Part shown: positions 11,702-50,838 of the stretch, piece after piece
Position numbering within the stretch: the first letter of the stretch is position 1
How the letters are laid out: each line of letters begins with the position of its first letter
From: a virus
Taxonomy: Duplodnaviria; Heunggongvirae; Uroviricota; Caudoviricetes
IMG/VR virus record: IMGVR_UViG_3300032236_001858
Reading direction: 5' to 3' (one strand)
Length of the DNA stretch: 64,000 nucleotides
Translations under genes and position numbers: made by a program
Notes under the pieces: generated by a model
What the model was told of the DNA's origin: nothing
Databases searched by the model: none
Seen by the model: the letters and a program-made list of their open reading frames with translations, nothing else

Positions 11702-11737
11702 AATTAAATATATATATTAAAATATCAAACTATTATT

Positions 11738-12055
11738 ATGAAAATTAGAAGATTTAATGAAGATGAACAAGTAGATATCTCATCTGAAAGAATTAGTGAA
11801 ATAAATGACCAATTAAAAGATTTTGCTGCTACTATGTTAGATAAGTCAAAATATGTTGAATCTCTTCTAAACGAACTTAATAACTATAAGAGTGATTCTA
11901 CAAAGGGCAATGACCAGATAGATGATTCTATTGCTGCTTTACAAGTTATTAAAAAAGACGTAGATGATTGTAATGATAAGATTGATACTGTTATTAATAA
12001 TCTAACTGATTATAATGATGGTGGAAGAAAATATATGTACACTGAAAACAAGTAG
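11738..12055 (+). CDS. Coiled-coil hypothetical protein with capsid-targeting-like leader
   Basis: MKIRRFNEDE; heptad pattern. Confidence 0.7.
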   Translation: MKIRRFNEDEQVDISSERISEINDQLKDFAATMLDKSKYVESLLNELNNYKSDSTKGNDQIDDSIAALQVIKKDVDDCNDKIDTVINNLTDYNDGGRKYMYTENK

Positions 12056-12076: not shown

Positions 12077-12241
12077 ATGGCTATTTGGGAAAATATTCCT
12101 TTGATTAAAAGAGAATCTATAAAAAAATCTTTATATAGATTTGATAGAATACAAAGCAGGAAAAAGAAAATTATCAATTTGTTATGTCATTTGCAAGAGG
12201 TTGGGGTAAAGACGGCTGGAAACACAGACAAGAAGATTTAA
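12077..12241 (+). CDS. 54-aa ORF carrying an R-x3-I-x2-L-L motif (not in ORF track)
   Basis: Manual translation MAIWENIPLIKRESIKKSLYRFDRIQSRKKKIINLLCHLQEVGVKTAGNTDKKI; overlaps the next ORF by 58 nt. Confidence 0.45.
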   Translation: MAIWENIPLIKRESIKKSLYRFDRIQSRKKKIINLLCHLQEVGVKTAGNTDKKI

Positions 12242-12342
12242 TGAAGGAATCTTGGGAGATTTTCAGAATAACAAATAGAAAAAGAATAAGAAAATCTAAA
12301 ATTAATAACATATTTAATGAAGTTAGGAAAGAAGTCAAGTGA
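12184..12342 (+). CDS. 52-aa ORF carrying an R-x3-I-x2-I-F motif (not in ORF track)
   Basis: Manual translation MSFARGWGKDGWKHRQEDLMKESWEIFRITNRKRIRKSKINNIFNEVRKEVK. Confidence 0.55.
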   Translation: MSFARGWGKDGWKHRQEDLMKESWEIFRITNRKRIRKSKINNIFNEVRKEVK

Positions 12343-12577
12343 TTTAGAACCAGGTTATGTTTATGTTCCTTATATTCCAATAACAACATCACAAGTTATA
12401 GTTGGTTATGGTTCTAAAAACATAAATAGAAAAAGAAAGATTAATAAAATATTTGATTTAGGTTTAGATATTAAAGATGAATTCTCACCAAGTAAATCAA
12501 TTATGAGTAGATACTCAACAAAGAATATAAATAGTAAATATTACGGAACTATAGAAATAAAAAATCCCACTTTATAA
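12317..12577 (+). CDS. Small protein resembling the C-terminal segment of T4-like major capsid protein, with an inserted RKRKINKIF motif
   Basis: PGYVYVPYIP ... FSPSKSIMSRY..K.IN.KYYGTIEI, versus gp23-type GxxYAPY..L...F.P..G..TRY. Confidence 0.6.
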   Translation: MKLGKKSSDLEPGYVYVPYIPITTSQVIVGYGSKNINRKRKINKIFDLGLDIKDEFSPSKSIMSRYSTKNINSKYYGTIEIKNPTL

Positions 12578-12587
12578 GTGGGATTTT
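12561..12587. terminator. Bidirectional intrinsic terminator
   Basis: AAAATCCCACTT-TAT-AAGTGGGATTTT at a convergent junction. Confidence 0.8.
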
Positions 12588-50448: not shown

Positions 50449-50838
50449 ATGATAAAGAAATATCTACAATTTATAAAAGAAGCTGATGAAACAACAGAGG
50501 CTCAACCTGCTGAAAAATATCAAGATACTGGTAAATATACTGAGCTAAAAGATGAGGTTAAATCAATGATTGAAAAAACCATTGAAAAGAATGGTGGTGA
50601 GTTCAAATCATTTGTAGATAAATTTACAAAATCTCCAGAAGATACTAAGATTGAAGGATTTATTAACGATTCTGATATTTATGAATTTTATTTAAAATTC
50701 AGAAATGATATTGATGAGTTATTAAATAATATTAAGTATTTTAATGAGGTTCCAAGTGACTCAAACACTTTTGGTCTTTATGACTATATCATACATGGAA
50801 CTGAAAAAGCTGTATCAGAAATCGTTAAAGAGTTATAA
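50449..50838 (+). CDS. Hypothetical protein with capsid-targeting-like leader
   Basis: MIKKYLQFIKE. Confidence 0.75.
   Translation: MIKKYLQFIKEADETTEAQPAEKYQDTGKYTELKDEVKSMIEKTIEKNGGEFKSFVDKFTKSPEDTKIEGFINDSDIYEFYLKFRNDIDELLNNIKYFNEVPSDSNTFGLYDYIIHGTEKAVSEIVKEL

What the first reader, a model, noticed from the sequence alone, without database searches (positions are those of the whole stretch)
12317..12577. Stand-alone mimic of the major capsid protein C-terminus with the docking motif spliced into it
PGYVYVPYIP...FSPSKSIMSRY..K.IN..YYGTIEI follows the order and spacing of the C-terminal gp23-family segment (recalled T4 gp23: AGIYYAPYVAL...NFQPVMGFKTRY). An insert containing RKRKINKIF lies between the two conserved halves. 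An 86-aa protein cannot form an HK97 fold. Inference: a decoy for host defences that sense capsid protein (as CapRel and Lit do), or an assembly modulator. It is the last of three overlapping micro-ORFs (12077-12577) that all carry the motif.
Basis: partly seen in the sequence, partly recalled or inferred. Interest (0 to 1): 0.75.

Follow-up and report, generated by a model that had tools for sequence, protein, structure and literature searches.

The report
Tagged mini-copy of capsid protein tail
A 476-kb phage carries a conserved 86-residue gene that copies only the last stretch of a T4-type capsid protein, with a short basic helix spliced into it. It belongs to a set of similarly tagged mini-copies of core phage proteins, and what any of them does is unknown.

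Summary
Window 12317-12577 (+) is a real gene under purifying selection, with hundreds of close metagenomic homologs. Its two halves are homologous and collinear with the last ~60 residues of gp23-family major capsid proteins (MCPs). A profile of the family hits the extreme C-termini of full-length PF07068 MCPs at E 1e-9 to 1e-6 library-wide. A 23-25-residue insert (residues 31-53/55) carries RKRKINKIF and is the only confidently predicted helix.

New points:
- The core is nearer to canonical gp23 proteins (40-49% identity) than to the phage's own divergent MCP (31%).
- The genome holds at least four other small MCP-piece ORFs plus a 258-residue truncated MCP-like ORF. Most of these recur in related huge phages.
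- The motif marks about 17 micro-ORFs, including mimics of the tail-sheath N-terminus, the TerL Walker A and PolB motif B. It is a basic variant of a C-terminal tag on about 7-9% of this phage's genes.
- ORF1 and ORF2 carry the tag but show no MCP similarity.

Function is untested. My best reading is a late-expressed, intrinsically unfolded MCP-derived micro-protein that pairs by strand complementation with a gp23-fold partner and is addressed by the tag. A decoy for capsid sensors remains open. I found no paper describing this. Earlier notes of this scan had flagged the tag and the PolB micro-ORF on this same genome.

The parts
11706..11720 (+). TAAATATATATATTA box in the 36-nt divergent intergenic region ahead of the 105-aa gene; candidate late-type promoter of the unit
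   Evidence: Similar TATATATA-type boxes lie 20-35 nt upstream of the ATG of the MCP, tail sheath and TerL genes. Function as a promoter is inferred, not tested.
11738..12055 (+). 105-aa predicted helical protein; first gene of the unit and syntenic with the micro-ORFs in relatives
   Evidence: It is present upstream of the micro-ORFs in L008 and L010-L013. It has no significant Pfam or PHROG family.
12077..12241 (+). ORF1, 54 aa, tag SRKKKIINLL at 12155-12184. The ATG of ORF2 starts on the last base of the tag.
   Evidence: Its N-terminal 36 residues are conserved in L010-L013. The motif HMM scores 15.6 bits. It shows no MCP similarity and no Atlas hit.
12184..12342 (+). ORF2, 52 aa, tag IRKSKINNIF at 12286-12315. 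The ATG of ORF3 starts one base after the tag.
   Evidence: It is conserved in L011 and L012 and absent in L010 and L013, where ORF1 abuts ORF3. The motif HMM scores 18.1 bits. It shows no significant MCP similarity.
12317..12577 (+). ORF3, 86 aa: the stand-alone gp23 C-terminus derivative (the finding)
   Evidence: It has 364 homologs of 82-123 aa; the 120 listed share 74-99% identity. dN/dS is 0.20-0.78. Homology to MCP C-termini rests.
12323..12406 (+). First MCP-like half, residues 3-30 (LGKKSSDLEPGYVYVPYIPITTSQVIVG)
   Evidence: It aligns with own MCP 498-525 and with T4 gp23 ~437-458 by way of the own MCP. G13, P18 and Y19 are at least 90% conserved across the wide alignment A3.
12407..12475 (+). 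Insert, residues 31-53, absent from MCPs. It contains the tag helix K34-F46 (12416-12454), core RKRKINKIF.
   Evidence: It corresponds to a 23-residue gap in hhalign. AF2 predicts helix 34-46, the block with the highest pLDDT at about 94. R38, K41, I42, I45, L48 and L50 are invariant among close homologs.
12476..12562 (+). Second MCP-like half, residues 54-82 (DEFSPSKSIMSRYSTKNINSKYYGTIEIK)
   Evidence: It aligns with own MCP 526-557 and with canonical MCPs ..DDFTPRKGVMTRYAKKMVNNRFYG.I... R65 and Y66 are at least 90% conserved in A3.
12561..12587 (.). Bidirectional terminator hairpin with a 12-bp stem. The ORF3 stop codon lies in its loop, and the 5' arm encodes the C-terminal ..KNPT.
   Evidence: It was found on both strands by the terminator scan and is visible in the sequence.
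30977..31147 (+). Sister micro-ORF in the same window: 56 aa with PolB motif B (KMILNSSYG) followed by the tag TRKEKIKRIF
   Evidence: The motif HMM scores 16.7 bits. It holds the only in-frame K...NS.YG match in the genome. It has no Pfam hit.

Best explanation
SHOWN:
- ORF3 is a conserved protein-coding gene.
- Its body is the last ~60 residues of a gp23-type major capsid protein.
- A 23-25-residue insert forms a basic amphipathic helix (RKRKINKIF).
- That helix belongs to a tag family found at or near the C-terminus of about 17 micro-ORFs, and in a looser form on about 7-9% of all genes of this phage.
- On its own the protein is predicted to be one helix with extended, unpaired flanks.

INFERRED:
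- By HK97-fold topology, which I take from established knowledge and did not test here, the body is the long strand running out of the A domain, the return strand of the P domain and the final strand.
- It is made late, from the same kind of TATATATA box as the MCP, sheath and TerL genes.
- The residues it keeps (G-Y..P-Y, S-R-Y, Y-G) are the ones that are near-invariant in real MCPs. So it most likely works by offering these strands for beta-strand complementation with a gp23-fold partner in the capsid assembly pathway. That partner would be the phage's own MCP or prohead, or the co-conserved set of other MCP-piece micro-proteins.
- The tag helix addresses or tethers it to the hub that recognises the tag.
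- The net effect would be that of a microProtein: a modulator, cap or accessory of capsid protein folding or assembly, not a shell subunit.
For: Real gene: 364 homologs; dN/dS 0.2-0.78 in 28 pairs; 397 clusters at 50% identity reached by the profile at E <= 0.001, full-length MCPs included.

MCP origin. The Atlas lists 70 of the 100 nearest clusters under one family set; the two shown are ~80-aa 'Gp23 domain-containing' clusters.

Same residues kept as in MCPs: the only columns at least 90% conserved in A3 are G13, P18, Y19, R65 and Y66.

Unfolded alone, tag helical.

Set of MCP pieces in this genome, by Pfam Gp23:
- profile 26-47: 144 aa
- profile 132-172: 66 aa
- profile 162-194: 75 aa
- profile 222-260: 56 aa
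- profile 184-305: 258 aa
- profile 308-347: the target
Most of the same pieces recur in G001-G004 and LR745206.

Natural fusions: the upstream micro-ORF and ORF3 form one 125-aa ORF in three sequences on several contigs (P0260 cluster).

Late context: the gene lies between tail-fibre-like genes and genes that earlier notes of this scan (unchecked here) call head-cargo genes, and it has the shared TATATATA box.
Against: - The core is closer to canonical gp23 (40-49% identity) than to the phage's own MCP (31%). Pieces L018, L023 and L025 show the same pattern. Co-evolution with the own MCP would predict the opposite.
- Sister tagged micro-ORFs copy TerL Walker A and PolB motif B, which are catalytic motifs and not assembly interfaces. 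A capsid-assembly role therefore cannot explain the class as a whole.
- The MCP pieces overlap one another and lie at six loci on both strands, so they are not a clean partition of one protein.
- The hub that reads the tag is unknown.
Confidence: 0.4

Rival explanations
1. Anti-defence decoy or sponge. ORF3 and its sisters display the most conserved motifs of the core phage proteome (MCP, sheath, TerL, PolB, tail fibre) as tagged peptides. These peptides would occupy or mislead host sensors that recognise those proteins, and the tag would sequester or dispose of the bound sensor.
For: - The class covers hallmark proteins of the kind bacterial STAND/Avs receptors sense. MCP, terminase, tail proteins and polymerases are named (the polymerases there are family A); tail sheath is raised only as a possible further target (PMC13581612, read).
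- The fragments resemble canonical gp23, that is the general pattern, more than the phage's own MCP.
- The enzyme-motif fragments fit a 'pattern display' better than an assembly role.
- Short gp23 peptides can engage a defence: Gol/Lit, from my own knowledge.
Against: - The Avs sensors described recognise folded core domains over large surfaces (PMC13581612). ORF3 is predicted unfolded and carries residues that are buried in the MCP fold.
- A binder that mimics the trigger would be expected to activate a sensor, not block it.
- I found no phage-encoded fragment decoy in the literature searches.
- No defence system of the unknown host could be examined.
Confidence: 0.22
2. Weapon against competing T4-type phages. 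A dominant-negative fragment of canonical gp23 would poison capsid assembly of co-infecting phages with canonical MCPs. The huge phage's own divergent MCP would be immune.
For: ORF3 and pieces L018, L023 and L025 match canonical gp23 better than the own MCP, which is only 20-26% identical to canonical MCPs.
Against: - It does not explain the Walker A or PolB motif B fragments.
- There is no evidence of co-infection.
- The N-arm piece is as close to the own MCP as to canonical ones.
- Slower evolution of an old paralog explains the same identities.
Confidence: 0.08
3. Piece of a split mini-capsid protein. The MCP-piece micro-proteins (N-arm, E-loop/spine helix, A-domain unit, C-terminal strands) would reassemble in trans into a reduced HK97-like protein, for example a descendant of a gp24-type paralog, with the tag helices acting as connectors.
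For: - Most of the set is co-conserved across genomes.
- Fused versions exist: the P0260 cluster; single sequences P0270 (A-domain piece + tag + ORF3-like) and P0361 (N-arm piece + C-terminal piece).
- Fold-core residues are retained.
Against: - The pieces overlap: two spine-helix pieces exist, and the 258-aa ORF covers the same ground.
- The pieces are scattered and lie in different operons.
- P0270 and P0361 are singletons.
- No structural test was possible.
Confidence: 0.12
4. No function of its own. On this reading ORF3 is a captured gene fragment carried along by a recombining 'tag + restart ATG' cassette, or a mere operon-end ORF.
For: - The layout is cassette-like. The next ORF's ATG begins at or one base after the tag at both junctions.
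- ORF2 is present or absent between ORF1 and ORF3 in relatives, and ORF3 sits in different neighbourhoods in L009, L014 and L016.
- A MUG113/T5orf172 gene lies next to another fragment array.
Against: - There is purifying selection, and MCP-specific residues are kept across clusters below 50% identity.
- There are hundreds of intact homologs.
- There is no DNA identity to the parent genes beyond chance, so the fragments are old yet still intact.
Confidence: 0.08

Closest known systems
C-terminal segment of gp23-family major capsid proteins (Pfam PF07068; T4 gp23 residues ~437-479 and onward, PDB 6uzc/7vs5/5vf3)
   Same: It is homologous and collinear, with the same near-invariant residues: G-Y..P-Y, F.P, S/T-R-Y and Y-G. 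Identity to canonical MCP C-termini is 40-49% once the insert is removed.
   Different: It covers only the last ~60 residues of a 450-640-residue fold. It has a 23-25-residue tag helix inserted between the halves, it is a separate gene, and it is predicted unfolded alone.
microProteins (miPs) of plants and animals, e.g. LITTLE ZIPPER and Id proteins (own knowledge)
   Same: It is a small protein that derives from one piece of a larger protein. Such a protein is expected to act by pairing with the parent or its partners.
   Different: miPs keep a whole interaction domain, whereas this keeps a few strands of a fold core. Binding to the parent is not shown here. It is viral, and it comes as one of a panel with a shared tag.
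Gol peptide of T4 gp23 and the Lit protease; MCP sensing by CapRel and Avs7/8/10 (own knowledge; PMC13581612 for Avs)
   Same: Parts of the capsid protein are what these defence systems read, so a free capsid fragment could in principle interfere with them.
   Different: Gol lies near the N-terminus, in the region copied by another micro-ORF (C1:165780-166211), not in the C-terminal segment. No sensor, binding or effect was tested.
Small phage or satellite proteins that redirect capsid assembly (P4 Sid, SaPI CpmB) and the basic C-terminal helices of scaffolding proteins (own knowledge)
   Same: These are small late proteins that act on the capsid protein lattice. A basic amphipathic helix is a possible docking element.
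   Different: None of those is derived from the MCP itself. The tag here also sits on about 40-60 mostly non-structural small proteins.

Membership tests
Gp23 major capsid protein family (PF07068) | Sequence match to the family profile above Pfam's gathering score | tested here: not met
   This protein scores 15.4 bits against a cut-off of 24.4 (E 0.013). A few close homologs carry a precomputed PF07068 hit. Atlas clusters of ~80-aa relatives carry it on 76-97% of members.
Gp23 major capsid protein family (PF07068) | Homology to the family, shown by profile search | tested here: met
   The profile of 51 homologs hits the C-termini of full-length PF07068 proteins at E 4e-10 to 3e-6 against 1.84 billion sequences. 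hhalign against the own MCP scores about 6 sd above shuffles.
Gp23 major capsid protein family (PF07068) | Complete HK97-type fold (N-arm, E-loop, P and A domains) able to form capsomers | tested here: not met
   The 86 residues cover only profile positions ~300-350. AF2 gives one helix and extended flanks. It is a derivative of the family, not a capsid protein.
Tagged micro-ORF family of this phage (R-K-x-K-I-x-x-I-F) | Match to the motif model built from the instances | tested here: met
   The score is 14.9 bits. There are 17 genome hits at 10 bits or more against 1 in reversed sequences, and 6 of the training instances came from this genome.
Tagged micro-ORF family of this phage (R-K-x-K-I-x-x-I-F) | Tag at the extreme C-terminus | tested here: not met
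   In ORF3 the tag is internal, 39 residues from the end. The LR745206 ortholog and clusters such as P0316 and P0328 have it at the C-terminus, and P0261, P0267, P0271 and P0338 have both positions.
Decoy for capsid-sensing defence systems | Binds a host sensor of the MCP and alters its activation | not testable with these tools
   The host and its defence systems are unknown, and no binding or activity assay is available.
microProtein acting on its parent | Physical association with the parent protein (MCP) | not testable with these tools
   This needs pull-down or co-assembly experiments.

The most novel reading that the evidence does not exclude
This clade of huge phages encodes a panel of tagged peptide mimics of the most conserved motifs of the core phage proteome. 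The panel includes at least four gp23 elements, the sheath N-terminus, TerL Walker A, PolB motif B and a tail-fibre N-terminal motif. It would act as a general counter-measure against host pattern-recognition immunity (or against rival phages), with the shared R-K-x-K-I-x-x-I-F helix delivering whatever is bound to a common sink.
Probability: 0.2. Interest if true: 0.9.

Novelty: new variant of a known kind. Interest (0 to 1): 0.66.

Why it matters
Capsid proteins, terminases, sheaths and polymerases are the proteins that bacterial immune receptors are now known to read. They are also the parts whose assembly huge phages must control at unusual scale. A conserved, selected family of free-standing, tagged fragments of exactly these proteins has not been described, as far as my literature searches show.

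Whichever reading holds (assembly microProteins, decoys, or pieces of a split capsid-like protein), the panel gives a concrete, small and easily synthesised set of genes to test. The shared tag also points to an unknown addressing system used by 7-9% of this phage's genes.

Tried and rejected
- Complex prediction of the own MCP (A2) with ORF3 (A1) gave no verdict: score 0.00 against a mark of 0.32. It counts neither for nor against binding.
- Profile and single-sequence searches of ORF3 against PDB sequences gave only chance-level hits. The own-MCP profile found nothing at E <= 0.001. Only phmmer of the own MCP reached T4 gp23, at E 0.011.
- PHROGs has no family for ORF1, ORF2 or ORF3.
- tblastn of ORF3 against 50,697 deposited phage genomes found no match at E <= 1e-3.
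- The first AF2 run, with a shallow alignment, was uninformative at pLDDT 50. The second run, with the diverse alignment, gave only the helix.
- ORF1, ORF2 and the upstream micro-ORFs of relatives score within the shuffle range against the MCP profile. The Atlas gave nothing for ORF1 or ORF2.
- I rejected the idea that the fragments act at the DNA level, as recombination donors for the MCP gene or as decoy homing sites. The longest exact matches to the parent genes are 9-14 nt, which is no more than shuffled controls give.
- I set aside programmed frameshifting that would join ORF1, ORF2 and ORF3. The frame steps differ (-1, then +1), there is no canonical slippery heptamer, and ORF3 stands alone behind unrelated genes in L014 and L016. 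This was not tested.
- The homolog search of the fused protein P0270 found it to be a singleton, so it is weak evidence.
- Resemblances of the tag that I recalled from memory were considered but could not be tested. They are the MinD membrane-targeting helix, the MuA-type ClpX signal, clamp-binding tails and scaffolding-protein C-termini.

Full report
WHAT IS THERE

The window is part of a 476,236-bp huge-phage record, at G000:C1:96490-160489. It is about 29% G+C and CheckV rates it 97% complete. The only DNA-level relatives among deposited phages are uncultured 462-642-kb genomes.

The finding is an 86-codon ORF at 12317-12577 (+). It is the last of three overlapping small ORFs (12077-12241, 12184-12342, 12317-12577) that follow a 105-aa gene. 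The unit starts after a 36-nt divergent intergenic region and ends at a 12-bp bidirectional terminator at 12561-12587. The loop of that terminator holds the ORF3 stop codon.

IS IT A GENE?

Yes.
- A word-seeded search of 5.8 billion proteins returned 364 homologs of 82-123 residues. The 120 listed share 74-99% identity, and some sit on contigs of up to several hundred kb.
- Eight loci from IMG/VR gave dN/dS of 0.20-0.78 in all 28 pairs.
- A profile of 51 homologs found 397 clusters (50% identity level) at E <= 0.001 among 1.84 billion representatives, full-length MCPs among them.

IS IT A COPY OF THE CAPSID PROTEIN'S C-TERMINUS?

- The single sequence gives only a weak Pfam Gp23 hit (E 0.013) and a short BLASTP match to the phage's own 564-aa MCP at C1:62115-63806 (E 3e-4).
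- Profile against profile, the family aligns collinearly with own-MCP positions 492-555. One 23-residue gap falls exactly where RKRKINKIF sits. In a re-run without realignment the score is 30.4, against 14.4 +/- 2.6 (maximum 22.8) for 200 column shuffles.
- The family profile hits the last 30-60 residues of proteins of 487-642 aa at library-wide E-values of 4e-10 to 3e-6. All ten I tested are PF07068 at E 1e-47 to 1e-78.
- With residues 31-55 removed, the remaining 61 residues align to canonical MCP C-termini at 40-49% identity over 53-62 residues.
- The own MCP aligns with T4 gp23 425-479 in solved structures.
- In the ESM Atlas, 70 of the 100 nearest clusters fall in one family set. The two shown are ~80-residue viral clusters named 'Gp23 domain-containing'.

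ANATOMY

- Residues 3-30 (..EPGYVYVPYIPITTSQVIVG) and 54-82 (DEFSPSKSIMSRYSTKNINSKYYGTIEIK) are the MCP-like halves.
- In a 72-sequence alignment that includes real MCP C-termini, the only columns conserved at 90% or more are G13, P18, Y19, R65 and Y66. These are the residues shared with MCPs.
- By HK97-fold topology (established knowledge, not tested here), these are the strand leaving the A domain, the return strand of the P domain and the final strand. On that reading the insert sits at the turn between the two long strands.
- AF2 with a shallow alignment gave pLDDT 50. With the diverse alignment it gave pLDDT 74.5, a helix at 34-46 (block pLDDT about 94) and extended flanks.
- The protein therefore does not fold on its own. 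Only the tag is a defined element.

UNEXPECTED: NEARER TO CANONICAL gp23 THAN TO ITS OWN MCP

- The own MCP is 20-26% identical to canonical gp23-type MCPs.
- ORF3's core is 40-49% identical to those MCPs but only 31% identical to the own MCP.
- Three other pieces (see below) behave the same way.
- Either they descend from an old, slowly evolving paralog or an acquired canonical gene, or they are selected to look like the general gp23 pattern.

THE TAG AND THE CLASS

- A motif model built from 15 instances finds 17 stop-to-stop frames at 10 bits or more, against 1 in reversed sequences. Nearly all are in 47-95-residue ORFs, and most lie 0-6 residues from the stop.
- At both junctions of the target array, the next ORF's ATG begins on or one base after the tag.
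- ORF2 is present or absent between ORF1 and ORF3 in relatives. In one well-sampled cluster the upstream micro-ORF and ORF3 are fused in frame.
- In LR745206 the ortholog has contiguous halves, and its tag is at the C-terminus.
- A looser form, R-[DEK]-x-K-[IL]-x-x-[IL]-[FLI], sits in the last 22 residues of 42-58 of 633 crudely called genes. The same pattern occurs at 0 N-termini, in 5-7 mid-protein windows and in 1 reversed control. This agrees with two earlier notes of this scan on this genome.

The bodies of the tagged micro-ORFs are often fragments of hallmark proteins:
- four more gp23 pieces matching Pfam profile 26-47, 132-172, 162-194 and 222-260, plus a 258-aa truncated MCP-like ORF;
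- the N-terminus of the 1296-aa tail sheath, with the tag lying in a 15-residue gap, the same design as ORF3;
- the Walker A of TerL, SRQTGKS against SRQVGKT;
- a DUF2793 tail-fibre motif;
- PolB motif B.

Most of the MCP-piece set recurs in four IMG/VR relatives and in LR745206. None of the fragments shares DNA identity with its parent gene beyond chance.

HOW IT MOST LIKELY WORKS

The gene, its origin, the insert, the helix and the class are shown. The function is inferred.

A protein that is unfolded alone yet keeps exactly the fold-core residues of its parent should need a gp23-fold partner to pair with. The gene lies in a late-looking unit: its TATATATA box resembles those before the MCP, sheath and TerL genes.

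I therefore favour a microProtein that complements strands of a gp23-fold partner during capsid protein folding or assembly. The partner would be the own MCP, the prohead or the other MCP pieces. The tag would address the protein to an unknown hub. I give this a confidence of 0.4.

Against it stand two facts. ORF3 is closer to canonical gp23 than to the own MCP. And the class includes enzyme-motif fragments.

Both facts fit the decoy reading better (0.22). That reading is topical, because STAND/Avs receptors sense MCPs, terminases, tail proteins and polymerases (PMC13581612). However, those sensors read folded domains, and a mimic of a trigger should trigger.

Other readings are a weapon against canonical T4-type rivals (0.08), a split mini-capsid protein (0.12) and a functionless captured fragment (0.08).

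WHAT IS KNOWN

Five literature searches found no description of stand-alone MCP fragments or of this tag. Automatic naming of ~80-residue 'Gp23 domain-containing' clusters exists.

ORF3 is a derivative of PF07068, not a member in the functional sense. It fails the gathering score and lacks the fold.

LIMITS

- The complex prediction gave no verdict.
- The host is unknown.
- The gene census is crude.
- Promoter and fold-topology statements are inference.

Noticed in passing
G000:C1 whole genome; in the window e.g. 30977-31147, 33794 region: A C-terminal tag R-[DEK]-x-K-[IL]-x-x-[IL]-[FLI] lies in the last 22 residues of 42 (strict) to 58 (loose) of 633 crudely called genes. The same pattern is found at 0 N-termini, in 5-7 mid-protein windows and in 1 reversed control. 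Its binding partner is unknown.
   Followed up: partly
G000:C1:84859-86382 (+), and window 30977-31147: The family B DNA polymerase gene (508 aa, exonuclease domain plus motif A YDFASLYPT) stops at a terminator in the first fingers helix, before motif B. No ORF of 150 aa or more has K...NS.YG or a clear motif C. The only in-frame motif B in the genome is in the 56-aa tagged micro-ORF. The C-terminal half of the polymerase was not located.
   Followed up: partly
G000:C1:165780-166751: An array of three genes: a 144-aa copy of the MCP N-terminus (KKWAPVLE.., LLPIAMRVA..) with a 45-residue insertion; an overlapping 66-aa tail-sheath N-terminus mimic with an internal tag; and a 110-aa MUG113/T5orf172 (GIY-YIG superfamily) gene. 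From memory, the MCP N-terminus copy spans the region equivalent to the T4 Gol peptide.
   Followed up: partly
G000:C1:75556-76329 (-): A 258-aa truncated MCP-like ORF (Pfam Gp23 profile 184-305, 26.8 bits, above the cut-off) that lacks the N-arm and E-loop. It is conserved in G003 and G004.
   Followed up: no
G000:C1:434189-434657 (-) and 50580-50744 (+): An array of three overlapping tagged micro-ORFs. Its first member and a paralog at 50580 share NIK.FD.V...P.G...SS....ITILPSR. No parent protein was found for them.
   Followed up: no
window 12561-12587; also L008 and G000:C1:50559-50744: The conserved C-terminal ..KNPT/..ENPT/..KNPL of several micro-ORFs is encoded by the 5' arm (AAAATCCCAC) of a terminator hairpin, so these residues may be conserved for RNA reasons.
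   Followed up: no
G000:C1:61247-62038 (+): The 263-aa ORF just upstream of the MCP has a long Asp/Glu/His-rich N-terminal half (repeats of ..HEEEGHED..EEDCGPM..) and no Pfam or PHROG family. Its position suggests a scaffold-type protein and a possible electrostatic partner for basic tags.
   Followed up: no
proteins P0304, P0305 (metagenomic): Some 'small' hits without the tag look like 3' parts of interrupted canonical MCP genes. P0305, for example, begins like a serine recombinase (my own recognition, untested) and ends as an MCP C-terminus. Not every short hit is therefore a stand-alone micro-protein.
   Followed up: no
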